DNA of 63,306 nt, the filler included, from Chiloscyllium plagiosum (lineage: Eukaryota), in the NCBI RefSeq assembly GCF_004010195.1. It is 4 parts of 4 records of this genome, joined end to end, with 100 filler letters (N's around TTAATTAATTAA, not from the genome) between each part and the next. Parts side by side here need not be neighbours in the genome. Positions count along the whole stretch, not along the records: positions 15,136 to 40,958 come from NC_057720.1; 3 more parts are not named here. One strand, 5' to 3'. Under the pieces are notes generated by a model. That model saw nothing but the letters and a program-made list of their open reading frames with translations, was not told the origin of the DNA and ran no database searches. Positions 15,136 through 56,239 of this stretch are shown here, piece after piece; position 1 is the first letter of the stretch, and each line of letters begins with the position of its first letter. A program made the translations under genes and the position numbers.

Positions 15136-15819
15136 TAGGGGCAGATCCTTCCAAAATCTACCCTGTCAGGTCCCTGGAGAATTTGAAATGTTTCAGTGAA
15201 ATCTCCTCCCAACCTTCTAAATTCCAGGGATGAGATCTGCAATCTCCTCTTGGCTTCCCAGAGAATCCGAGAATAAATCCCATTCCTCACCCAGTCCCCT
15301 CTCTCAATCATGAGACAATCCTCTCAACCCGACACATGAACTGTTGCTGGGTTTGATCATCTCAGTAAGAGTTTCAAGGAGGGAAGGAGAAAGAAAGACT
15401 CTTTCTGCTTTGAATCAATGCTATAAGTTGAAAAAGCAGGAAAATATTGCCACCAAGTATTGTTCACATACTCTTTCTATTCATCAAAGTGCTGGGTGAG
15501 GTTTCTTATGAATTTCAGGAGGTCACTGGTGGTGTCCTTATGTTCTTTATTCTTGCCTTGTCACTTGTTCATGTCATTTAGGAGAACGGAGTCAACCGAG
15601 AAGGAAATGAACAGCAGAGTTTGCTGTCTCTGTTGATTGAATTCACCTTGTTTGCTCCTTTGATCACCTGAAGAAGGGGCAAGGCTTGTGTCTTATAATA
15701 AGCCTGTTGGACTATAACCTGGTGTCCTATGATTTTTGACATTGGGGATTCCTGGATACAAGGTGTTCAGTAAAGATAGAAAGAGAGAAAATTGCGAGAA
15801 ATGGTGGGATGTGCTGGAG

Positions 15820-18800
15820 CCAGACAGTGCTGAACAATCTTAGGCCCTGAGATATGATGGAGATGAAGGGTGAACTCTGCTGGGCTTCAAATCACTGTTA
15901 CCAGAGTAAAACAGGGATTACCCATTTCACAAGAGAGTAAATGGAACTAACAAACCAGGTGTGTGTAAAACACCCACCCCGTCCCTGAGAGAGGGGGGAC
16001 AAGAACAGGGACATTCTCAGACAGAAAGGATGCTAAAAATGGTATCACTTCGAGAGCGAAGGGTGGGGATAGTGACAGCGACACTCCCCCAGAGAGTGGG
16101 GAAAGTAACACTGACACATTTAAAACTGTATTATCACAAGTGAGAATTCAAACAGCCACCCACTCCATCATATGGTGTTGAAGATGCACTGTTCTCATCA
16201 AAACATGTTTGCAAATCTCTTCACAATACTGTAAGGGGAGAGAAACATTGAAAACTGTATTATCCCAAGTGAAGGTCCATTTAAAACTTAGACCATGATG
16301 TTAAACGTTCCCAGCCGTAAAAGATAAACTAGTGTATTGACGTCATTATCTTATTAAACAATATTAAAACCTCGGCCAAACATTTTCCAGCGGACAGTGC
16401 ATTTAAAATATCAAGAGGCTTCCTACATTGTTGGTTTGATCAGTGACGGAGCAAGGAAGCAGCAGCTGCCCCATGAACTCCAACAAACGAATGAGAACAG
16501 GCTCTTCATACGGAGCTGGCTCCCGAGAATCCAATTCAACAGCAGGGATCAAAGAACAAGGAACAATACAGCACAGGAACAGGCCCTTCAGCCCTACAAG
16601 CCTGTGCTGACACATTTTGCCCTTCCATACTGAAACTATCTTCACCTACAGGATTTGTATTCCCCTATTCCCTTCCTATTCATGCATTACTGCAGGTGTT
16701 TCTTGAATACTTCTAATCTGCCTGCTTCCACCCCCTTCTCTGGCAGTGTGTTCTAGGTACTCAACTTCATTTGTGTGAAATACTTGCCTCGCACATCTAT
16801 TTTAAATTCCCCCCTCCCCTGCACCTTGAACCTCTGTCCCCGAGTAAGTGACCCCTCCATTTTGGGAAAAAAATACCTCATATTTTCCACTCTACCTATG
16901 CTATTCAAAACTGAATAAACTTCTATCAGGCCACACCTCAGTTTCCCTCATTCTGGTGAAAACAAAGCCAGTCTATCTAACCTTTCTTCAGAACTACAAT
17001 CCCCCCCTTCCTCCCCCACCCCATACCAGACAATATCCTGGTAAACATTTTCTGCACCATCTTCAAAACATCCACATCCTTCTGATAATGTGGTGACCAG
17101 AACTGTATGCAATATTCCAAGTGCGGCCGAACTAAAGTTCGATAAGGCTGCAGCATAACTTTTCTATCCTTATACTCAATGCCCCTTCCAATGAAGGCAA
17201 GCATGCCATAAGCCTTTTTCACAACCTTACCGCCGTGTGCTGCTACCTTCAGAGATCTGTGAACATACATACCCAGATCCCTCTGCATATCAATACCCCA
17301 AAGGATTCTGCCATTCACTGTATAATTCCCACCTGGACATCACCTTTCAAAATGCATCACCTCACATTTGTCTGGATGAAACATTTTCTGTCCGTGCATC
17401 CAACTGATCTATATCCTGCTGTATCCTCTGACAGTCCTTCTCATTATCTGTGACTCTACCAATCTTTGAATCAACTATAAACGTTTTAACTAGACCAGCT
17501 ACACTTTCCTCCAAATCATTTATGTAGACCATATGCAGCAGACTTCCCACAACTGATCCCTGTGGGACACCAGGAGTCATAGCCCTCCATTCTGAAAACC
17601 ATCCTCCCATCACTGCCCTCTGTCTCCTCTGACTCAGCCAGTTCTGTGCCCAATGCTGGGAACATTTTAGACAAGACACCTTGTTTCCAGCTCGTTACTG
17701 CAACTTGATCCAGTACGGTCAGAAAGAGAAAAAGGACAATGTGCAGATTGTTGAACAGGCCCCCACACCTGGGCCTGAGGCAGGAGCCCAAGCCCCAAGA
17801 CACTGGCCTCACTTCACACCAACGTTCAAACAGTGCGGGGTCATGAACTCCGGTCATCAATCCCTCTGGGACCGGGACGGAGTGAGGGGACAGGGACAAC
17901 TGTAGAAGAGTCAATAAGGAGTAAAACAAGATGGAGAGGGTGTGTTGGAAAGGGGTTAGAGGAGGAAATATACTTTGTCTCACTTAATACTGACATTGCC
18001 TACGTGTATCACAGAATGAACAAAACAGCACACTGTGAAGATAATCATATCACAGGAGACATTTTCATTGGGGTGTGATAAGTATCCTAGTTCAAAAGCT
18101 GTTTTCCCTCCCTCCCCCCCTGAAGAGGAGAGAGGCATGGGAAAAGAGAACTGACAATTCAAAATAAAAGCTCTTCACATATTGCCATCATTTGATATAT
18201 TAATGTGAGAGGATTATAGACCCTTAACAGCGAGAGTGTGGTGGCTCAGAGGCTAAAAGGCAAACAGCAAAGAGCAGCATTATTCCTTCTCAGGGTGTTA
18301 ATGTCATTGGCAAGCCTCATATTTATTGCCCATCTCCAGCAGTTCGGACTGAGTTCTTTGCTGAGCCAGATCATGGGGCCGTTAAGAATGAATCATGGCA
18401 CTGTGGGACTGGAGTCACAGTCTGGGTGATGACTGGATTCCCTTGCCTAAAGAACATACATAAAATGACATTGAGTTTCATGGTTTGTGTTTGGACACAT
18501 CTCAGCGCCGTCCTTCCCAGATATTAAATTGCTCACCACCGCCCTCTCCAGGACAATTAGGGAAGGGCAACCAATAGCAGACACATCAACGCTTGCCCCA
18601 TCCCAGGAGAAATCAAAATAAATGAGGGACAATTCAAATGATTAACCTGGGGGAGGCTTGAATTAATCTCTTTGAAAGACTGGAGCCTGCTTTTTCAGAT
18701 TACAAGTTGGAGTGCCACAACGATTGGTACTGGGATCAGGCACAATATGAATTGCAAAGGTCTTACAAACGGGTACAAAACCAATGTCACAAAACTGCAA

Positions 18801-18995
18801 AGAAAAAAACAGTTTATCAGGAAGAACTCAAGAGACTACAGAAAGCCATTAGTGGGCGTAAGACTGTAATGCAGATGTTGTTGAATACACCAGAAATACA
18901 ATTAAAGCGATTGGGATAGAGCAGGGCAATGGGATTAATTGAGTTTCTCTACTGAGAATTGGCAAGAAGCTTTCCTGCTTGTAATGACTCAGAAC
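15820..18995 (+). repeat. Segmental duplication, copy 1 (paralog of about 34830-38486)
   Basis: Collinear homologous blocks, e.g. 15930/34941, 16160/35815, 17645/36155, 18325/37613, 18940/38437. Confidence 0.85.
16551..17643 (-). mobile_element. CR1/HER1-like LINE insertion, absent from the paralogous copy
   Basis: GVPQGSV.G.LL..VYINDL and QRDLG.YVHRSLKVA...LVRPHLEYCIQFWSPHY motifs. The paralog reads uninterrupted at about 36155. Confidence 0.9.
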
Positions 18996-22862: not shown

Positions 22863-25626
22863 NNNNNNNNNNNNNNNNNNNNNNNNNNNNNNNNNNNNNN
22901 NNNNNNNNNNNNNNNNNNNNNNNNNNNNNNNNNNNNNNNNNNNNNNNNNNNNNNNNNNNNNNNNNNNNNNNNNNNNNNNNNNNNNNNNNNNNNNNNNNNN
23001 NNNNNNNNNNNNNNNNNNNNNNNNNNNNNNNNNNNNNNNNNNNNNNNNNNNNNNNNNNNNNNNNNNNNNNNNNNNNNNNNNNNNNNNNNNNNNNNNNNNN
23101 NNNNNNNNNNNNNNNNNNNNNNNNNNNNNNNNNNNNNNNNNNNNNNNNNNNNNNNNNNNNNNNNNNNNNNNNNNNNNNNNNNNNNNNNNNNNNNNNNNNN
23201 NNNNNNNNNNNNNNNNNNNNNNNNNNNNNNNNNNNNNNNNNNNNNNNNNNNNNNNNNNNNNNNNNNNNNNNNNNNNNNNNNNNNNNNNNNNNNNNNNNNN
23301 NNNNNNNNNNNNNNNNNNNNNNNNNNNNNNNNNNNNNNNNNNNNNNNNNNNNNNNNNNNNNNATTCAGACCCTCAACCATTGTCTGCACACTCTCACCTT
23401 CCAGGGGTCATGGGGTCATTAGGAGCAGTGATCCTGCCTGACTCTGGAATAGGAAGACTCAGTGCAGCCTCACCCATGACCTTCAGCCCAGCAGTGTGCA
23501 GCAAGTTTTGAAATATAATCTAGAACCTTCTACACAGGCACCCAACATGACTCTTTCCTGAAGTGTGTGGATCCGAGTCTGTTCCAACGTTATCGGATAA
23601 AGTTCTCCTGATCTGTGGGTGATCGGAGATTTGTTAAAGAGATATCGAGCTCCATCCCACTTTCCAGCTCTTGCTCCATAGCTCTGGAGGTGTCACTGTT
23701 TTAAGTGAATATCCAAGTGTTTTTTCAATATGATGAGGGTTTCTGCCTCTCCCACCCTTTCAGACAGTGAGTCCCACATCCCACCAGCCTCTGGGTGAAA
23801 ACAAATACCCTCAACTCCCCTATAATCCTGCCCCCAACTGATTTCAATCTCTCCCCATGGTTATTGCCCTCTGTGCTGGTGGAAATCAGTCATTCCTATC
23901 CAATCTATCCAGGCCTCTCATCATTTTATACACCACCTTCAAATCTCCCTTCTGCCTCCACTGTTCCAACGAAAACACTCCCAGCCAATCCAATCATTCC
24001 TCAAAGCTCAAAGTCCCCATTCCAGACAAACTCTTCCTCTGTCCTGGTCTCTCGAGGGATCACATCCTTCCTGTAATGTGGTGACCAGAACCGTACACTG
24101 TTCCCTCACTGTGCTCTAACTGGGGTTTTATATGGTTCCAGAATAAACAAACTTCTTCCTTTCGCTGTCAACCAAAATGGTATTATTGCTGAGCTGTTAA
24201 TCCAGAGATCCAGGTAATGTTCTGGGGACCAGGGTTAGAATCCAGCAGTTGGTGGCATTCAAATTCAATCAAAAAAAATTGAGGACATTAAGAGACTAAT
24301 GATGACCATGAAACCATCGTTGATTGTCAGGAAAAAGCCATCTGATTCCCTAATGTCCTTTAGGGAAGGAAGCGGCCATCTGTATCATGTGACCCCAGAC
24401 CCACAGTAATGTGGTTGACTCTAAACTGCCCTCTGGGTGATTAGGGATGGGCAATAAATGCTGCCGATCCAGAAATGCCCTCATTCCATCAAGGGAAAAA
24501 GAAAAACAGTTTATCCCATGTATCTTCTTAACCACCTTACTGACCTGCATTAATCACCATGCCCACATCTTCCACCTCCACACTCATCTGACTTCCCGCT
24601 TCAAAATGATGAGAGACATTCCATCATTATCTGAGAAACAGAAACATCAAACACAGGAACAGCAGTAGGCCATTAGGCCCTTCAAGCCTGCTCCACCATT
24701 TAATATGATCATGGCTGATCATCCAACACAGTCCCCTGTTCCTGCTTTCTCCCCACATTCTTCGATCCCTTTAATCCTAAGAACTATATCTAATTCCTTC
24801 TTAAATACACACTGCATCTAATTCCCTTTTGCTGGAAAAATGGATGACAATTATTGGGTTGTTGTTTTTTGACCAGTATGGACACAATGGGCTGATGGGC
24901 CTCTCTCTGACTCTATGACTCTATTACTATATATTATGAATAACTGAGTACCAAGGACTGACCCCTGTGGTGCCCTAAGTTGTAATTCCCTGTCATTCAG
25001 AAAAAGACTCCTTCTTTCTGTCCTGTCTACAAACCAGTTCCCAATCCATGTCAGTATGACCTCCAATCCTCTTGTTCATTTTGTCTAGATCTGGGAGTCC
25101 CACCCTTACTCTTTGTGGGAACAGATTCTGAACAATCTCTGTCTCGTCCTTCGAGGGCTCTCACTGCCCTGACACTGATTTCTGATCATGTCGCTGGTTC
25201 CGATCCACTTTTACCAAAGCACCACACAGTTTCATAAAATGAAAACTTTTACACTTGCTCCATGGTTCTCCATTTCCATCCATACTCTCAATCTCACTGA
25301 GTTCTGATCACTGTCACTAAAATGATCCCCCATTGATAGCCCTTCCAGCTGCCCACAATCATTCCATAAACAATGGTCCAAAACTGTCCCTTCTCTCTCT
25401 GCTGCTTCACCATCACCTTGTCAGGAGCAACTAGGGACAGTAATGAATGCTGGTCCTGCCAATGACACTCAGATCCCAAGAAGCAATTTGAACAATACCT
25501 GTTCCTTTGTTGGGTTTATTCTGCATTGACTACAAATGTTCCAAAAGATTGTATTGCCAGTGAATATTGTGAGGGTTGAATTCCCTTCAAATGGCAGGGA
25601 TTAAAATTGTTTCTCTTGTCTTTCAG

Positions 25627-25955
25627 GCCGTGAGAACTCTCAGCCCAAGCAGACCCTGCTGCCCCCCTTCCCGGAGCAGGTCAATGCCAAAGGCACTGCC
25701 ACCCTGGTGTGCCTTGCCAATCACTTCTATCCTGATGAGCTGGAGGTGTAGTGGAAGAAGGACGGTGCAGTCATTTCGGACGGGGTTCAGACCAGCAACT
25801 ACCTGCGAGCTTCGGACAGCACTTACAGTGTCAGCAGCCTGCTGACCCTCTCTGGGTCTGACTGGGAGTCCAACGCTCACTTCTCCTGTGCCCTCACCCA
25901 CGTGACCCTCTCCTCTCCCCTCAGCAAGAGCATCAGGAGATCAGAATGTGTGTAG
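25627..25955 (+). pseudogene. IGKC: Kappa-type (shark NS4/type III-like) Ig light-chain constant exon with a premature stop
   Basis: Acceptor tttcag|GC, then (S)RENSQPKQTLLPPFPEQVNAKGTATLVCLANHFYPDELEV*WKKDG...DSTYSVSSLLTLSGSDWESNAHFSCALTHVTLSSPLSKSIRRSECV*. In-frame TAG at 25749-25751; normal stop at 25953-25955. Confidence 0.92.
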
Positions 25956-26481
25956 AATGTTTGAGACAGTCCACAGAGGAGACACAACTTAAAACAGAAC
26001 AGGGCTGAGCTGGCAGGACAAAGATCATTGTCAGCACTGAATTTCAACTCTCTTCCTTCTCAGGACTGCTCAGAGAACCTTCTGAGGTTTGGATGTTAAA
26101 GCAGGTCATTGCAACAGTGTCGAGGGAGCTTTACACTGTGTCAAACCTCATGCTGTACCTTGTCCTGGGAGTGTTTGATAGGGACAGGGTTGACTTGTGA
26201 TGCCAAGTAAAATCTCTTGAAGTTGCTGAAGACTGTCAGATGTACAAAACAATGTGAACCTCAGAAGTCTCTGCTTCAGTAAACCAGATCTCCTTCCTGC
26301 TTAGCTGTCAGTTCCAATTTAAGATTTTGTCACTGTTTAAAGTAACAGGATTCTCATGTTATTGAGCAAACCTCCACCAGTGTTTTCCTCAAGCTCCATT
26401 GTGGCTGTGAATTTGAGCAGCTTCCTCTGTCTGGGCTGTTAATTGCAGGTTTTTTTCTTTCAATGTGAATGTGGAAAAGGG

Positions 26482-26487
26482 AATAAA
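26482..26487 (+). terminator. Polyadenylation signal of the light-chain C gene
   Basis: AATAAA about 530 bp after the stop, followed by a GT-rich element (tctctgtcttgtgtgc). Confidence 0.65.
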
Positions 26488-26861
26488 GATGAAGATTCAG
26501 TCTCTGTCTTTGTGTGCTTTGGAAATAGATGACCTTCGCCGCCCCCAGTTGATTGGCTGCATTTCAGCAGGTCTTTGTAGAGATTGGCTGGTTGGCCTGT
26601 CAATCAATTACTATCATCAATCATTAATCATTTTCAAATGATCCCTTTGATCATGGATTTGTGTAGGTTACAAGATTCCAAAAAGAACAGAAACTGAAAG
26701 CTGTTAGGACTCAATAAGTACAATCTGACGCATTCCCTCTTCACTCTGTTGGTCCAGGCCCACTGATGGGATCGCACTGTGCAATCTCTGCTGCATGTTG
26801 GGTAGCCCCTGAAACATTCTTCGGCCATTCACAGACATTGTCGGCCGTGTGCCTCTCTGAG

Positions 26862-27099
26862 GTAAAAACAAGGACTGCCAAAAGCTGGAAACCAGATTCT
26901 AGATGAGAGTGGTGCTGGAAAAGCACAGCAGTTCAGGCAGCATCCGAGGAGCAGGAAAATCGACGTTTCGTGCAAAAGCCTTTCATCAGGAATAGGGCTC
27001 TATTCCTGATGAAGGGCTTTTGCCCGAAATGTCGATTTTCCTGCTCCTCGGATGCTGCCTGAACTACTGTGCTTTTCCAGCACCACTCTCATCTCGAAT
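26862..27099. mobile_element. Palindromic Penelope-like terminal-repeat insertion with a 15-bp flanking direct repeat
   Basis: Inverted arms at 26896-26997 and 26998-27099; gtgtgcctctctgag at 26847-26861 and 27100-27114. Confidence 0.8.
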
Positions 27100-27244
27100 G
27101 TGTGCCTCTCTGAGTGTGAGTGTTTAACTTAATGCTGCCTGTAGGTGTCTCTCTCAGTGTGGATATGTTACTCAGAGAGACACCTACAGGCAGCGCTCAG
27201 TAACGCACCCACATTCGGAGAGACCTATCCGCAGCATGGAGTGT

Positions 27245-34677: not shown

Positions 34678-36726
34678 GGTGAATGGATCATGAATCTCTG
34701 GGAGAACTTACTTTGTGACAACACTGGGATTAATGACCACCTCCTCAGTGGGCTTTGAGGGTGAAGGTCAATAGCTGTCTCATTGGGACTTGATCTGAGT
34801 TGTCTCCAGTTAGTCAGTGTTATTGTTCTGGGTCCAGACAGTACTGACCAACCCTGTGTTCTGATTGAGATGAAGGGTGAGCTGTGCAGGGCTTTCACAC
34901 CTTGCACACACACATAGTGAAGCAGGGATTCCCTGTTTCAGAAGAGTAAATGGAACGAACAAACTGGGTGGATGTGACACCCCCACCCTGTCCCCAAGAG
35001 AGTGGAGACTGGAACAGTAATATTCTCACACAGAAAGGATGGTAAAAATTGTAACCCACAGAGAGAGAGAGGGGATAGGAAACGCAATGCTCCCTAAAGA
35101 CAGGGGACAGTATCTGTCTGTTCCCCACTTTCTTGTTGTGTTGTGACCTTGGGAAATTGATTTGGCTTATATTTTCTCAGTTGTATTTAGGTTTGATGAG
35201 GTGATTCAGTAACAAGGATTCCAATTGCATATTTCCTGTAGCAGCAGATCCATTGAAGATCACATTTTCATTTGGAGGTTGCCCAGGTTTCTGTCCAGGC
35301 TGATACAGCATGATCTGCCAGTGCTGCTCCTATTGGGCTAAACCATCACACACCAGGGAATCTGACGGGCACTTTCTTTTTGTGCTGGCAAAGGGAGGGA
35401 TTTGGTTTTACTGCGATGGTGCCCAGAGAAATTAGTCAGTGGATGTAGTTCCAGCTGAGCAGAATGTTCTGATGTTCATGATGGGATTTACCTCGACAGT
35501 TCCCACTTGCCTTTACCCCGACAGTGGGGCAGGAAGTCACCACACAGTGGTCTCCTGGCTCACACTGAGAAACCAAGTCGATGGTACAACTGCAGAGAGC
35601 AAGACAAAGGTTTAGACTCACCGAACAACCAGAGGCTTCAGCCAACAACTGGGTCACAGGCAAATGGCGTGTTGTGTAAACTCTCAGTATCTCAGGGAAC
35701 ATTCATTGACAAACATAACTAAAAAATGGAACAGGATATTGTTTATGAAAATTGGCATTGCAAAAATAAAATTCAAACACATTATAGATTTCATTTCAAA
35801 TACTACAGCATTTTCCACTCCGTCACACGGTGTTGAAGACGCACTGCCCTCATCATAACAGGTTTGCAAGCATCTGAATAACAGGTAAGGGGAGAGAAGC
35901 ATTGCAAACTGTATTATCACGAGAGAAGATCGATTAAAACCTCGAACCATAATGTTAAATGTTCCCTGCCATAAACAACACTGATGCATTCACATCATTG
36001 GAATGTTAAATGATTTAAATCTCAAGAGGCGTTGATGATTTTTTTCCAATTCCATGGCAAGGAAGCAGCAGCTGACATATGAACTCTAACAAAATGATAA
36101 CAGGCACTGAATACAGAGCTGGCTCCAGAGAGAGAGAAAAAATCAACAGCAGAGATCTGTCCAGTGCTGGGAACATTTTAGACAAGGCACCTTGTTGCCA
36201 GCTCGTTATTGCAGCTTGAAAACTCCAGTACAGTCAGAAAGAGAAAAAGGACAATGTGCAGATTGTTGAACAGGCCCCTACACCTGGGCCTGAGGCAGGG
36301 GCCCAAGCTCCAACACACTGGCCTCACTTCACACCAACCTTCACACAGTGCGGGGTCATGAACTCCGGCCATCAATTCCTCTGGGACGGAGAGAGGGAAA
36401 AGGGACAATTGTAGAAGAGTCAATAAGGAGTAAAGCAAGATGGAGAGGGTGTTTTGGAAAGGGATTAGAGGAGGAAATATACTCTTTGTGTCACTCAAAA
36501 CTGACATTGTCGACGTGTTTCACAGAATGAAAAAAACAGCACACTGTGAAGACAAACAAAAGTCACATCAAAGCGCTTTTCTTATCACAGGGGATATTTT
36601 CATTATGGTGCCCTCACTACCCTACTTTTAAAGCTGCACTGGCTCTCTATGGATCTTTACAGATTGAGCCAGTTAGCTCCAAGCAGGGCCCCAGTTTATT
36701 TTTTTACTGATCAGGGACAGTGAAGC

Positions 36727-36745
36727 AGCTGCCCTCTAGTGGCGA
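36727..36745 (-). promoter_or_regulatory. Candidate CTCF binding site
   Basis: Minus strand TCGCCACTAGAGGGCAGCT closely matches the CTCF core CCASYAGRKGGCRS. Confidence 0.6.
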
Positions 36746-37767
36746 GAGAGCGTTTGCCCTGCTGCTGAGGATTATGGGTAAAGTCCCCTTCCATTCGCGC
36801 CCACACAAACCAGCAGCCACTTCAGCTGCTTTATTGAAAACCACAAGCTTTCAAGGCGCTGATCTTACAACGGTGGAACTGGCCACACGATCATACGAAT
36901 TAGGGACAAATGAAGGAGATTCATCCTCTTGAGCCTGCTCCCCATGGCTGACCTGATTATTCCACATTCTTGCCTCACTCTGATAGATTCTTGATAAGCA
37001 ATGACTGTCTACTTCCTCACTACAAGCATTCAGAGGTTTCATTTCTTTGCTTGAAGAAAAGTTCCAAAGACCTATGACCTTATGCAAGAATAAAAAAAAA
37101 CCTGCTTATCTCAGTCTTCTATGAGGGAACTTGTATTAATTTGATATTCTCCCCGAAAAGGAAGCATTCTTTTCACATCCACGCTGTATTCTATGTTCAT
37201 GTTGATATGGCATCTGCTTTAATCAGCTGCTCTGTCATGAGAACAGCTACCTATCCTGCCACCTTCAGTGACTGATGCTCATAAACATCCAGGTCCTACT
37301 GCCCCTACATCCACCCATACTTGTACCCTTTAGTTTGTTTTGTCTTTCCACGTTTTCCTTCCAAAATGAATCAGTGACATCTCTTTCCATTAAATTGTTT
37401 CTACAGCCATCTGCTCATTCCATTAACTTATCTACATCCTTTTTGAAGTTTGACGCTATCTTCTTCATCAGCCATAATACTTCCAAGTTTCATACCATCA
37501 GCAAATTTTGAAATTATGCCTTGTACACGCAGGTTAACATAGATTTAAATATTTTAAATATTTTTTTAAAAATGAACTATTTTATAAATTATTGTAAATG
37601 AAACCTCAAATTTATTGCCCATCTCTAGTTACTCGGACTGAGTTCTGAGCCAGATTATGGGGCTGTTAAGAATGAATCGCGTCACTGTGGGACTGGAGTC
37701 ACAGACCGGGTGATGACTGGGTTCGCATGTCCAACTACATTCATGAACATGACATTGAGTTTCATGG

Positions 37768-37893
37768 AGAAAGTGAGGGCTGCAGATGCTGGAGATCAGA
37801 GCTGAAAATGTGTTGCTGGAAAAGCGCAGCAGGTCAGGCAGAATCCAAGGAACAGGAGAATCGACGTTTCGGGCATAAGCCCTTCTTCAGGAA
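37768..37893 (-). mobile_element. Short PLE terminal-repeat insertion with an intact hammerhead core (37863-37890)
   Basis: Minus strand CTGAAGA-a-gggcttatgccc-GAAACGTC. The insertion is absent at the paralogous site near 18480, and agtttcatgg is repeated on both sides. Confidence 0.75.
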
Positions 37894-38485
37894 GTTTCAT
37901 GGGTTTCATTGAGGAAGTTTCATTGAGTTTCATGGGTTTTTTTGTTCAGATCCCAGTGCCTTCCTACTCAGATATTACATGGCTCACCACCGCCCTCTCC
38001 AGGACAATTAGGAAAGGGCAACAAATAGCAGACATTTTTGTGCCCGCCCATCCCAGGAGAAATCAAAATAAATGAAATACTCTTCAAATGATCAAACTGG
38101 AGAGGCTTGAATTAATCTCATTGAAAGACTGGAGCCGAGGCTAGAAGTAGAGCCATGACATGGGTGAACCTGGTTTGTCAGACTGCAAGGTGGAGTGTCC
38201 TTCTGATTAACACTGGGATCAGGCACAAAATGAATTACACTCAAAGACCGAACAAACGGCTCTCAAAGCGGGTCACCAAACTGCAAGGAGCAGCAATGTA
38301 TCTGGGAGAACTCAACAAGTATCAGTGGGTGTAAGAGCATTAGGCAGGCAAGTGTCAGATATTGTTCAACACACCAGAAACACAGTCACACAGAAAGGGA
38401 AGCTATTGGGATAGAGCAGGGAAACGGAAATAACTGAATTTCTACACTGAGAGCTGGAAGGGGTTTTTTCAGTTGTAACTGAGAA

Positions 38486-38530
38486 CGCTTCTCGGCCTTT
38501 TGGCTAAGATCAAGTGTCTGTTCTTATCAG
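38486..38530 (+). pseudogene. RNU2: U2 snRNA 5' fragment (nt 3-52 with a 5-nt internal deletion) fused to the retrotransposon 5' end
   Basis: CGCTTCTCGGCCTTTTGGCTAAGATCAAGTGT equals U2 nt 3-34 and CTGTTCTTATCAG equals nt 40-52. The rest of U2 is absent. Confidence 0.92.
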
Positions 38531-38688
38531 GACAGGGGTCGAGTTGCGAGTCATCAGAGCTAGTGGAGATCATCGCTGGATCGTGATTGGACGTTGGAGG
38601 ATCGTTTGGTTGTGCTGACCTGCTATTGGTGGATCTTCATGCTGGCTTCGGCCTAACGCCAATTCAGGGACCAGCCAACCTCAGAGCT

Positions 38689-40115
38689 ATGGCCTCAACA
38701 GCTGCCCGCACCCCAGGCCAGGGGGTTCGAAACACCGTCCGGGTGTCTGTCAAGAAGGTGGAAGAGCGTACACCAGTCGATCGGACGGTGTTCGTCAAGA
38801 AGGTGCTGTTCGAGTGCTGTGGGTTCGCCGCAGCAGATGTGTACTGCCTGCAGGATTTCCCTGGGGCAGGCTACTTCGACGTCACCTTCAGGAGCGTGAA
38901 GCAATGTGAGCAGCTCCTGAAGGTCTTCAAGGAAAAGGAAGGGGAGCCGCTGTGCTCCATCTTGTCGGTGGTCCCGTTGTGTGTGCTTCCTCCACAGAGG
39001 AGCCGGGTTGTTCCGATCCACATGTACAACCCCTACGTGCCAGCAACCGATGTTCTGACATTCCTGGGAAGATATGTGCAGGTCGAGGGACAAAGCACTG
39101 ATGTGGTTGACCCTTTCGGGATCTGGACCAGCAAACGACAGGTCAAGGTAACCCTGAAGGTGGATGCCAGCGGGAATATCCTCCACCCACCTCCAGCTTT
39201 GCTATCGGAGGGAGCAGAGCGTACCTGACTTATGCAGGGCAGCCGAAAGTGTGCCGAACCTGTGGGAGGTCAGGCCACATGGCGGCGGACTGCAAGGTCA
39301 CGATCTGTCGCAATTGCAAGAAGGAGGGTCACCCGACCAAAGAGTGCAAGGAGGAAAAGAACTGCAATCTGTGCGGGGAGGCGGGCCACGTGTACAGGGC
39401 CTGCCCAAGACCAGGGGCGGCCACCTATGCGCAGATGGCCGGAGGCGGGCCACAAAAGGACGGCAAGGCACTGTAAACCGGCAAGGGAATGGTGTCAGGA
39501 GGCATGCAACAGGAAGGACAGGCCGGAGCAGAGCAGATGACAGTTACCGGAGAGGTACAGCTGCCGAGCGAAGCTCCGACAGGACAGATGGAGGAGGAGG
39601 AGATGGAGAAGGGAAAGAAGGAGGCAGAGAAATGGACCATGGTGCAAAACAGGAGGAGGAAAATCCACCCGGCCACCAAGACCTCCCAGAAAAAGGGGAA
39701 AAGGCAGCTGCATGGGGAAGACACGAACAGCTGTTCGGAGGGTGAGGACGGGCATAAGGAGGGTCGTCACCAAAAGAAGAGGCAGAGCGCTGCGAGGAGA
39801 AAGGAGGGCAGCATCTGCCAACCAAGGGATGAACCTCCTGAGGAAACCACCACCCCCCACCAGGTGAAAGCCAGGATGGCCCCGCCGCCACACAGCTCCA
39901 GGTCACTGGGAGCAGCAGATATAGAAACAGACAGCGTGGACCCTGGTCTCGGCCCGATGACACCGAAGCGGGCAAATGGGCCGAGTGAGGAACTGGACAG
40001 CTACCTCAGCCCAGCGAGGGTCCAGCAGTTTGCGTACTGCACGGGGATGCAGACAGCTACCCGAGAGGGGCAAGACCAGCGACAATCGGACATGGGTAAC
40101 CTTACAACCTGTTAA
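38689..40115 (+). pseudogene. Retrotransposon ORF1 (gag-like, 3 x CX2CX4HX4C), disrupted
   Basis: MASTAARTPGQGVRNTVRV...; 1-bp frameshift near 39190; CRTCGRSGHMAADC, CRNCKKEGHPTKEC and CNLCGEAGHVYRAC knuckles; in-frame TAA at 39474-39476; charged C-terminal tail. Confidence 0.85.
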
Positions 40116-40119
40116 CAAA

Positions 40120-40958
40120 ATGGGGTTTAAAATTGCAACTATCAATGTGCGCAGCATAAAATCTGCTGCGCGATGTGTTTCAACACTGGCCTTCCTGGCC
40201 AACGTGAAAGCCGATGTCCTGCTTCTGCAGGAGTGTGGGAGACCGCACCTCAGCAGTTACAGGAGATGGTCGAGCTTGTGGGCCCATGAGCCGTCAGTGT
40301 GGTCGGGGGGTAACGATAACCGCTCCTCGGGCCTGGGTATTCTGTTACGGGGAGGCAACTTCACCATCTCCGAGGTTAAGGAGGTGGTGGGCGGGCGACT
40401 CCTCGTCGTTGCTGATGTTACATACAGAAACGCTCCCGTGAGACTAATCAATGTGTACACCCCAGCGGGTAAGAGTGAACGGTTGGCCGTCCTGCAGCAG
40501 CTTCCACTGTTGCTGGCTACGTCCAGGCCGGTCATTCTGGCCGGAGACTTCAACTGTATCATCGATGCAGATGGACGATCCGGCGGGGGGGATAGTAAAC
40601 TGGACACCACGTCCAGAGCCCTGATGGACACGGTAAAAGATGCCAAGCTGCACGACGTCTTCAGCACCCCTGCAGACGGAGCGCAGCGTAGATATACATG
40701 GTCACGGGCAGACGGGTCTATCCGCTCAAGGATAGATTACCTGTTTGTGTCCCGAACGCTCTCGGTCAGATCCACCGACGTCAAGCCGGTGTTCTTCTCT
40801 GACCACTGCCTCCTGCTGGCCGACTGTCACCTACAGAATGAGCAGCAGGCTGGTAAGGGAATATGGAAGCTGAACACTACGCTGTTGACCCCAGGAAACA
40901 TTGAGGAGCTCAAGAGGGACTACGCAGGTTGGAGAACCGTGAAGCCCCTCTTTGAGCC
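40120..40958 (+). CDS. Retrotransposon ORF2 N-terminus: AP-like endonuclease (open to the scaffold end)
   Basis: MGFKIATINVR, LLQE, INVY.P, LAGDFN, YTW, SRIDY, FSDH and WKLN motifs. Confidence 0.9.
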
Positions 40959-44700: not shown

Positions 44701-45625
44701 ATACACAGCCACACACATTCCTAGACGCACGCTCCTACATACACACACACAATCCTACAATTACACTCATGTGGGTCCTCTCATGCACAAGATCTCTCTC
44801 TCATACACACACATACAGATGCATGCACAGACACAGACACACCACACACATTCCTAGAGGCACGCTCCTACATACACACACACAATCCTACAATTACACT
44901 CATGTGGGTCCTCTCATGCACAAGATCTCTCTCTCATACACACACACTCACATGGTCAGACGTGCAGCCTCTCACAATCACACACATACACATACGCTCA
45001 CACGAACGCTCATAACCTCCCCCCATACACACCCACACACACAAACACACACAAAGAAATTTGTCGGGAGAATTTGTACTTGCAGAATTACATTTTATTT
45101 TTCTCAAAAACTGCACGAATCCATGTTAGATTCTGTAAATCCTTTTTCTAGATCAGAATCAGCCTGAACATTGTGCCACAGACAGTCTCACAGAGGACAC
45201 CTCACAACTTAAATGCATTAGCTGGGCCGACATGACACTAATTGTTAAAGTTCACTTGAGAATGTAACTTTAAGAATGTCCTATGATTTACATATGAAAG
45301 AACTGAAACCAACATGTTCATTCTAAAAGATGAGAAACGTAAATTAAATATTTAACTGGATTGTCTTAATTTTCTCATCTTTTAGAATGAACATGTTGGT
45401 TTCAGTTCTTTCATATGTAAATCGCAGAACATTCTTAAAGTTACATTCACATTGTAAACTTTTGCTGCAAATTCTGTGTCTTACAATCTTGTACTCCACA
45501 ACGACCTGATGAAGGAGCAGCGCTCCAAAAGATAGTGCTTCCAAATAAACCTGTTGAACTATAACCTGGTGTGGTGTAATTTTTCACTTTCTAACCCCAG
45601 TCCAACACCGGCATCCCCAAATCAT
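41795..45625. mobile_element. Cluster of a second PLE family: terminal repeats at ~41795-42060 (+), ~42945-43435 (-) and ~45060-45625 (+), and a GIY-YIG 3' fragment at ~44255-44580 (+). Interrupted by a CR1 fragment (~43605-44120, -) and CA/GT-rich repeats.
   Basis: Shared block ctgatgaaggagcagcgctccgaaagctagtgcttccaaataaacctgttggactataacctgg; degenerate NVVYLIHCRQGC endonuclease motif. Confidence 0.7.
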
Positions 45626-55410: not shown

Positions 55411-55709
55411 GTATCAGTGGGGACATCACCATGACTCAGTCTCCCCCGGTGCTGTCAGTGGGACTGGGCCAGACCGCAACCATCACCTGTACGGCCAGTC
55501 AAAGCATTAGCAGCTACCTTGCTTGGTACCAGCAGCGAGAAGGTCAGAAACCCTCTCTCCTGATCTATCAAGCAACAAATCGATTCACAGGAGTCTCCAA
55601 TCGATTCACCGGCAGTGGATCAGGGACCAGTTTCACCCTGAAAATCAGCAACGTTCAGAATGAGGATGTCGCTGACTATTACTGTCAGCAGCATTACAGC
55701 TACCCTCGA
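55411..55709 (+). CDS. IGKV: Kappa-type (NS4/type III-like) VL exon, open
   Basis: cctcag|GT; [52 protein letters not shown]...[35 protein letters not shown]. Confidence 0.96.
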
Positions 55710-55737
55710 CACAGTGATACAGATCCGTACAAAAACC
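55710..55737 (+). promoter_or_regulatory. Consensus 12-spacer RSS of VL
   Basis: CACAGTG, 12 bp, ACAAAAACC. The V-12/J-23 arrangement is the kappa-type configuration. Confidence 0.97.
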
Positions 55738-56165
55738 TCAATACACACAGCATCACCTCCTGTACTGACATATCCCAGAGTAATATAAAATGTATAATAC
55801 TGGACACACACAGTCCCACCACCTGAACTGACATATCCGATAGTTAGATATAAATGAAACTGAACAAATTACCCCATGCTGGGATTGTTACTGTCCACGG
55901 CACACTCCAGTCCCTGTGGTGTCCACCGCTCACTAAAGGCCTCACGTTTCCCTCTTACATTCTATGGCCACATGTGAAGGGCAGCTGCAAGATTTAACAT
56001 CGAATTTCACAACTCTCCCAAGCCCAGCTGCACACAACCGAGAGACACAGAGACAGAGACACAAAGACACATGAATGAGGGAAAGACAGAGAGGGGCAGC
56101 AAGAGGGTGAGAGTGAATGAGAGACTGGGAGAGGTTGAGAGTGATGGGGGGAAGCAGAGATCAGA

Positions 56166-56204
56166 GGTTTTTGTACAGCCTTTCCACTAGGAGCTCTCAC
56201 TGTG
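56166..56204 (-). promoter_or_regulatory. Consensus 23-spacer RSS of JL
   Basis: GGTTTTTGT, 23 bp, CACTGTG. Confidence 0.97.
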
Positions 56205-56239
56205 GCTTACGTTCGGTAAAGGAACCAAGCTCAGACTGA
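56205..56239 (+). CDS. IGKJ: Kappa-type JL segment, canonical splice donor missing (possible pseudogene)
   Basis: LTFGKGTKLRL with the FGxG motif. The expected A|GT donor reads A|GA at 56240-56241. Confidence 0.88.

What the first reader, a model, noticed from the sequence alone, without database searches (positions are those of the whole stretch)
38437..40958. U2-headed Keno-like retrotransposon inserted outside a U2 gene, with its empty site in the same scaffold
Seen: the element begins with U2 nt 3-52. The DNA upstream is not a U2 gene flank but the duplicated block, whose paralog continues uninterrupted (…gtaatgactcagaac|aataaatg at ~18995 versus …gtaactgagaac|gcttctcgg at 38486). Known: Keno elements (Tx1 clade) target U2 snRNA genes. 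Inference: the source copy was transcribed from a host U2 promoter starting at about +1, and the chimeric RNA was fully reverse-transcribed into an off-target site in an Ig region. This would be a direct trace of snRNA-promoter use and relaxed target specificity. ORF1 shows only two visible lesions and the visible ORF2 none, so the copy is fairly young.
Basis: partly seen in the sequence, partly recalled or inferred. Interest (0 to 1): 0.7.

Follow-up and report, generated by a model that had tools for sequence, protein, structure and literature searches.

The report
U2-headed LINE bred in U2 genes
This is a broken copy of a jumping-gene family whose many scattered full-length copies start with the front of the U2 splicing RNA; close relatives sit inside real U2 genes, whose promoter likely launches the copies, and this copy is likely two copies fused into one, with the DNA between them lost.

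Summary
The U2 head is real but is not a one-off escape. It is U2 nt 3-52 with a 5-nt deletion, shared by 43 of 43 heads examined, none behind a U2 promoter; the genome gives 633 candidates. The family is Keno-type with relaxed targeting: 0 of 35 dispersed 3' flanks are U2, yet 6 of 12 U2-promoter loci hold a relative inserted in U2 nt 34-56, and one shows promoter, U2 1-52, element, poly(A), U2 41 onward, the geometry that makes this head. An extra G before U2 +1 (17 of 25) fits capped RNA starting there. The 'empty site' holds for the 5' junction only: the recovered 3' end resumes at another site 14-20 kb away in paralogues, without target duplication, and the two halves belong to different subfamilies, so this is likely a recombinant of two copies (or a scaffold mis-join). 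The copy has six lesions. U2-headed Tx1 LINEs are described in crocodilians, and this scan noted the family before in this genome and in other genomes. New member of a known kind; useful because it makes their promoter question testable.

The parts
38486..38530 (+). U2 snRNA-derived head: U2 nt 3-52 lacking five bases (nt 34-38 or 35-39); the first two bases are also a microhomology with the target
38531..38688 (+). Rest of the 5' untranslated leader of the LINE
   Evidence: shared by the family's copies
38689..40115 (+). ORF1 (two ZCCHC3-type RNA-binding domains, CCHC knuckles), broken by four lesions; 483 codons open in sibling L091
40120..40958 (+). ORF2 start, apurinic-type endonuclease domain, no stop in this part; element continues through a 2,602-N gap to a poly(A) end at C11:91721194 outside the window
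34824..38485 (+). 5' flank: duplicated block of the Ig light-chain region, paralogous to 15810-18995
18469..18995 (+). Distant paralogue (about 70%) of the 5' flank, uninterrupted at 18995|18996; empty site for the 5' junction only
25384..27144 (-). Paralogue (77-88%) of the element's true 3' flank, on the opposite strand; overlaps an Ig light-chain constant exon
25590..25920 (+). Ig light-chain constant exon (C1-set) with an in-frame stop

Best explanation
This is a dead copy of a dispersed Tx1-clade, Keno-type LINE family whose full-length members begin with a U2 snRNA head that likely arose, and is likely still transcribed, in copies lodged inside real U2 genes, and this copy is likely a recombinant of two family members. 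Steps: (1, shown) relatives insert into U2 genes and duplicate 12-14 bases of U2, leaving promoter, U2 1-52 (or 1-39), element, poly(A), rest of U2. (2, inferred) RNA polymerase II starts at U2 +1 under the external U2 promoter and reads through the element, giving a capped RNA with the U2 head. (3, shown for the outcome, inferred for the chemistry) full reverse transcription places head plus element at nearly any T-rich site with an 8-18 bp target duplication and often an extra G at the 5' end. (4, shown) one lineage lost five U2 bases at the nick site and expanded; (inferred) the loss protects the head from being cut again and removes most of the branch-site pairing sequence. (5, inferred) here two copies of different subfamilies, some 14-20 kb apart in the Ig light-chain region, recombined and deleted the DNA between them.
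For: Head is family-wide: 30 of 30 loci, 43 of 43 heads with the deletion and 0 of 43 behind a U2 promoter, 633 candidates with 40 scored. Non-U2 sites are the rule: 0 of 35 distinct 3' flanks are U2, with a weak likeness to the U2 target (4.83 against 3.76 of 14 bases, p 7e-5). U2 targeting persists: 5 of 5 matches to poly(A)+U2 nt 39 (control 0) follow a Tx1 tail, one 95.9% identical to this copy's 3' end; 6 of 12 U2-promoter loci carry a relative starting within U2 nt 34-56 against 0.0002-0.002 expected. L250 shows U2 1-52, element, poly(A), U2 41 onward; L249 a full-length sister with U2 1-39 before and U2 27 onward after. G before an intact ATC start in 17 of 25 (background 23%, p 2e-6), while the U2 genes seen have T there. 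Target duplications in 12 of 19 siblings with both ends. Two-copy origin: 5' half matches subfamily 1 at 9 of 10 diagnostic sites and the 3' half subfamily 2 at 5 of 5; its nearest 5' relatives share 0 of 9 minority states in the 3' half; flanks are collinear with C101896 but 20.5 kb apart there; reciprocal junctions not found; gap size 2,602 against 2,341 in L090.
Against: No copy with this deleted head was found behind a U2 promoter (0 of 12 loci, 0 of 3); the promoter-resident copies are sister subfamilies (78-94% where aligned). Two subfamilies and an ORF1-only derivative share the same deleted head, which an internal promoter would explain as well. The extra G could be a genomic base of the source copy; only L095 separates it clearly from the target duplication. 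The 43 heads were retrieved with a query that carries the deletion, so 43 of 43 is biased; intact heads exist (3 of the 6 matches are this subfamily). 7 of 19 siblings also lack a clear duplication. L092, L098 and L108 have mixed tail states, so intermediates exist, and the groups were defined on the same data. The join lies in an assembly gap within 92-97% identical duplications. The tree is a quick one and holds no verified Keno.
Confidence: 0.6

Rival explanations
1. The head arose once in a U2 gene, but the family now carries its own internal promoter in the leader, so dispersed copies are the sources and the U2 bases are a passenger.
For: No deleted-head copy behind a U2 promoter; two subfamilies and an ORF1-only form share the head; the deletion had to be inherited through several source copies.
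Against: No shared 5' extension beyond U2 +1 other than one G among 43 heads; sister subfamilies have different heads (1-39, 1-52) that match different duplication lengths in U2 genes; young copies and U2 arrays are poorly assembled here (many N gaps), so the absence is weak.
Confidence: 0.3
2. At this locus the two halves are two separate insertions wrongly joined by the scaffolder across the gap; no deletion happened.
For: The switch of subfamily lies in or beside a 2,602-N gap; both flanks have many 92-97% paralogues on unplaced contigs; one paralogue starts right after a gap and cannot be judged (L262).
Against: Neither reciprocal junction was found: 0 of 30 paralogues of the 5' site's continuation follow a Tx1 tail, and two exact patterns gave 0; the gap estimate fits one element; flank order and strand match C101896 and C101760.
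Confidence: 0.25
3. One reading: one insertion from a U2-resident parent into the site that is empty at 18995, possibly with loss of target DNA.
For: The 5' junction is a clean insertion point with a 2-base microhomology; intermediate subfamily states exist.
Against: 3' flank is another site, no duplication, and the halves have different nearest relatives.
Confidence: 0.15
4. Each copy gained its U2 head independently by template switching onto free U2 snRNA, as proposed for SINEU heads.
For: Template switching is the published proposal (PMC4494074, sections 17-18); U2-plus-tail chimeras occur here (L209, L212).
Against: All 43 heads share one junction at nt 52 and one internal deletion that the genome's best U2 gene lacks; independent switches would give varied junctions.
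Confidence: 0.07

Closest known systems
Keno (Tx1 clade, U2 snRNA gene-specific; Kojima and Fujiwara 2004, not held; seen through passages of PMC6136364, PMC4640811 and PMC4494074)
   Same: Two ORFs, apurinic-type endonuclease; some copies end in poly(A) followed by U2 from nt 39, the published Keno 3' target; relatives sit in real U2 genes.
   Different: 0 of 35 sampled 3' flanks are U2; the U2 5' piece travels with the element; nick positions in U2 genes vary (nt 27, 39, 41).
U1/U2-headed crocodilian Tx1-Mar LINEs (Tx1-11_Crp with a U2 head; Tx1-2_Crp, Tx1-2B_Crp, Tx1-4_AMi with U1 heads; PMC4494074, sections 11, 16, 17, 18 read, supplements not available)
   Same: Tx1 LINEs that cluster with Keno, carry an snRNA head and lie outside snRNA genes.
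   Different: Those prefer a Mariner target and are 85-87% identical to consensus; this family is about 95% identical between copies, has no repeat target among dispersed copies, and still has relatives inside U2 genes, which links the head to the insertion geometry rather than to template switching.
Weakly specific Utopia families of reptiles (PMC4640811, sections 6 and 8 read)
   Same: U2-targeting LINEs that also insert outside U2 genes at sites with short likeness to the target.
   Different: Utopia has a restriction-like endonuclease and one ORF; this element has an apurinic-type endonuclease and two ORFs.
LINE-LINE non-allelic homologous recombination (PMC4344489, abstract read)
   Same: Two direct copies over 4 kb and about 95% identical recombine and delete the interval, leaving one chimeric copy.
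   Different: Here inferred from subfamily markers and paralogues across an assembly gap, in a shark-like Ig light-chain region; not shown by spanning reads.

Membership tests
Tx1 clade non-LTR retrotransposon | ORF1 with CCHC knuckles; ORF2 with apurinic-type endonuclease, reverse transcriptase and C-terminal zinc motif; poly(A) end; target duplications | tested here: met
   Pfam hits (RT taken from sibling L096); poly(A) ends; duplications in 12 of 19 siblings
Keno | Apurinic-type (not restriction-like) endonuclease | tested here: met
   Exo_endo_phos E 5e-18
Keno | 3' junction at U2 nt 38/39 in at least some copies | tested here: met
   L209 (95.9% to this copy's 3' end) ends in poly(A) plus U2 39-100, though not inside a U2 gene; 5 of 5 pattern matches follow Tx1 tails
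Keno | Target-specific for U2 genes (over 20% of flanks, the criterion in PMC4494074) | tested here: not met
   0 of 35 distinct 3' flanks, 0 of 43 5' flanks; collapsed U2 arrays could hide copies
Keno | RT groups with verified Keno proteins | tested here: inconclusive
   Quick tree joins the family with amphibian elements (93) and a teleost clade holding BAC82621.1 (89); that BAC82621.1 is KenoDr1 is recalled, and searches did not confirm it
snRNA-headed Tx1 (Tx1-11_Crp type) | Fixed U1- or U2-derived 5' end on copies outside snRNA genes | tested here: met
Tx1-Mar | Preference for Mariner-N4_AMi or related transposons | tested here: not met
   Flanks are unrelated to each other apart from other Tx1 tails and two common-repeat pairs; no Repbase library was available for naming
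Utopia | Restriction-like endonuclease, single ORF | tested here: not met
U2-promoter-driven element | Transcription from a U2 promoter starting at +1 | not testable with these tools
   Indirect only: promoter-resident relatives and extra 5' G; RNA 5' ends were not read

The most novel reading that the evidence does not exclude
The family breeds only inside U2 genes: each U2-resident source takes the gene's promoter and stamps the U2 bases up to its target duplication onto all offspring, and the successful lineage deleted exactly the five bases that hold its own nick site and most of U2's branch-site pairing sequence, making its head immune to re-cutting and harmless to splicing. Its scattered, promoterless copies then act as recombination substrates that delete parts of the Ig light-chain cluster array.
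Probability: 0.3. Interest if true: 0.65.

Novelty: new member of a known kind. Interest (0 to 1): 0.42.

Why it matters
How snRNA-headed retroposons are transcribed is stated as open in PMC4494074 (section 18), because snRNA promoters lie upstream of the transcribed part. This genome holds the intermediate states side by side: relatives inside U2 genes with the head equal to the duplication boundary, and hundreds of young dispersed offspring that start at U2 +1 with a cap-like extra G. That turns the question into a long-read and 5'-end experiment. The locus itself is an ordinary dead copy, but it likely records a LINE-mediated deletion in an antibody light-chain region. Searches listed no paper describing such a family in cartilaginous fish; Repbase and Dfam could not be checked, and supplements of PMC4494074 could not be seen.

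Tried and rejected
3' flank as U2 remainder or as continuation of 18996: rejected. Search for the true 3' partner of the 5' junction: one unrelated match, none among 30 paralogues, none by exact patterns; these do not prove absence. The duplication search for this copy ran on an empty 5' slice; the verdict rests on the flanks printed. One search was swamped by a common repeat. Verifying BAC82621.1 as KenoDr1 failed. The careful tree did not finish; only the quick one is used. RNA: no indexed RNA holder listed. On a sibling's 3' end, raw run X21 gave 538 reads, 286 with a poly(A) loose end but only 56 at 99% or more, and X22 gave 0; oligo-dT priming on genomic A tails inside introns would look the same, so this says nothing on the promoter. 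RNA 5' ends at the head remain unread. No paper passage for cap-templated G was found; that reading is from my own knowledge. No V or J segment was found by motif scan in the stretch or in the first 30 kb of C101896, so loss of an Ig gene segment is not claimed. Rfam miRNA hits are below gathering score and were ignored.

Full report
Setting. The finding lies in the stretch 15136-40958 of the pack, which is G000 contig C11 (window 38480 = C11:91715031). The genome has 3.56 Gb; the closest named relatives of the endonuclease are whale shark and horn shark proteins at 72-73% identity, so the host is inferred to be a shark. The stretch holds an Ig light-chain constant exon with a stop.

Observation. 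Bases 38486-38530 match the genome's best U2 gene (L034) at 45 of 45 aligned positions, covering nt 3-52 with five bases missing, nt 34-38 or equally 35-39. Behind it lie a leader, ORF1 with two ZCCHC3-type RNA-binding domains and CCHC knuckles, and ORF2 with an apurinic-type endonuclease. ORF1 has four lesions against siblings. Beyond the window, after a 2,602-N gap, ORF2 has a 1-base deletion (intact length in 18 of 18 sibling matches) and a stop where 28 of 28 matched siblings have a tryptophan codon; the element ends in poly(A) at C11:91721194. The copy is dead and about 95% identical to most siblings.

The head is a family trait. A 281-base query gave 633 candidates, 40 scored. All 30 loci returned start at or within a few bases of U2 +1 and have unrelated upstream DNA. 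Over 43 heads from 42 loci, all lack the five bases and none has a U2 promoter upstream; the query carried the deletion, so this count is biased. A pattern for the intact head gave 6 matches (control 0): 3 of this subfamily or its ORF1-only form, 2 older relatives, 1 sister family, none behind a U2 promoter. The 3' end gave 2,457 candidates, 40 scored. Of 35 distinct 3' flanks none is U2; they match the U2 target at 4.83 of 14 bases against 3.76 in background (p 7e-5), mostly in the first positions. Of 41 loci examined, 19 siblings had both ends; 12 show a target duplication of 8-18 bases, often overlapping the first bases of the head, and 7 do not.

U2 targeting persists. The published Keno and Utopia 3' flank is U2 from nt 39 (PMC6136364, passages; PMC4640811, section 6). 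A pattern of A run plus U2 39-58 gave 5 matches (control 0), each behind a Tx1-type tail; L209 is 95.9% identical to this copy's 3' end and is followed by U2 39-100 and a second tail, outside a U2 gene. The upstream region of a U2 gene found 12 loci (12 of 12 scored). Six carry a relative that starts within U2 nt 34-56 (L238, L239, L240, L242, L244, L245; L238 was recognised by reading, as its sequence overlaps that of L244); one has a fragment in the promoter, two are intact genes, one is U2 1-93 then other DNA, two are cut short. Chance would give 0.0002, or 0.002 with ten times more copies. Two loci are complete. L250: promoter, U2 1-52, element, poly(A), U2 from nt 41, with a second insertion at the same point. 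L249: promoter, U2 1-39, a full-length sister (RT 88%), poly(A), U2 from nt 27. The two head types in the family, 1-52 and 1-39, thus equal the two duplication boundaries seen in U2 genes. None of these resident copies has the deleted head.

Start site. Among 25 heads with an intact first three bases, 17 have G just before them (background 23%, p 2e-6); the U2 genes seen have T there. From my own knowledge, reverse transcriptases copy the m7G cap as an extra G; no paper passage was found. This fits capped RNA starting at U2 +1 but does not tell an external from an internal promoter, and a genomic G in the source copy is possible. That nt 33-38 of U2 pair with the intron branch site is established knowledge; the deletion removes four or five of these six bases and touches the Keno nick between nt 38 and 39. 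A protective role is a hypothesis.

This locus. The 5' junction is a clean insertion point: the window paralogue at 18995 and 11 closer ones among 14 examined run on past it. The 3' junction is also clean, but at another site: its closest paralogues (94-97%) are preceded by a different sequence, and in the window it matches 27144 to 25384 on the minus strand. There is no target duplication. In C101896 both flanks occur in the same order and strand about 20.5 kb apart (5' side 89-91%, 3' side 78-90%), in C101760 about 14-15 kb apart at 73-77%. Among 21 siblings with both regions, 5' and 3' markers define two linked subfamilies (7/0 against 1/11, p 1.6e-4; L108 and L113 left out; groups defined on the same data). 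This copy is subfamily 1 at 9 of 10 sites in its 5' half and subfamily 2 at 5 of 5 in its 3' half; L108 and L098 share 6 and 5 of 10 minority states in the first kilobase and 0 of 9 in the 3' half. Mixed tails in L092, L098 and L108 weaken this. A mis-join predicts two reciprocal junctions elsewhere; none was found among 30 of 30 paralogues, one of them unreadable, or by exact patterns. The gap estimate fits one element. I put recombination between two copies at about 0.55, mis-join at 0.25, a single insertion with target loss at 0.15-0.2.

Phylogeny. The RT of sibling L096 is 37-60% identical to the listed hits and 44% to BAC82621.1 of zebrafish; human L1 ORF2 scores E 3e-44. A quick tree of 69 rows puts the family, with its U2-resident copies, in one clade (100), next to amphibian elements (93) and a teleost clade with BAC82621.1 (89). 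That this protein is KenoDr1 is recalled and unverified.

Comparison and verdict. It works like a Keno that has relaxed its target and carries its old target's 5' part. It is not filed as Keno in the strict sense, because U2 specificity was tested and not met. U2- and U1-headed Tx1 LINEs of the Keno group are described in crocodilians (PMC4494074, sections 11, 16, 17, 18 read), and relaxed U2 targeting for Utopia (PMC4640811, section 8). Earlier notes of this scan describe the same or like families in this genome and others; they were read after my own reading was set and are not counted as support. New member of a known kind; interest 0.42.

Noticed in passing
L104, L229, L253, L254 (for example G000:C50:5142000-5151000): About 1.9-kb elements with the same U2 head and leader, an ORF1 about 80% identical to this copy, no ORF2, and a Tx1 tail: an ORF1-only non-autonomous derivative.
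   Followed up: partly
L038-L043, L048, L050; L210: A diverged full-length U2-like sequence with a shared 3' extension at unrelated sites; in L210 it ends in a Tx1 tail and is itself hit at U2 nt 39. Candidate U2-derived SINE-like family.
   Followed up: partly
L003, L005, L006, L007, L091, L110: Head-to-tail tandems: another Tx1 tail lies about 15 bases upstream of the U2 head; in L091 the spacer is the target duplication, so the same site was hit twice.
   Followed up: partly
window 38840-38875 homologue in L103, L106, L233, L235, L236: Copies insert repeatedly into one spot of ORF1 of other copies.
   Followed up: no
L219, L233, L239, L240: A sister subfamily has a different head (U2 1-39 plus its own leader); some copies have two U2 heads in a row.
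   Followed up: partly
L031:5800-6120 (C11:91720800-91721120): A 330-base common repeat has inserted into this copy's 3' untranslated part, so the copy predates that insertion.
   Followed up: partly
L046, L047, L051, L052, L053: U2 variant copies that share a short upstream piece and the 3' box region but not the long promoter block; status unclear.
   Followed up: no
window 55488-56232: Open Ig kappa-type V exon with a 12-spacer signal and a J with a 23-spacer signal, in another stretch of the pack.
   Followed up: no
window 26893-27102 and 45247-45462: Palindromic MITE-like elements that give sub-threshold miRNA hits.
   Followed up: no
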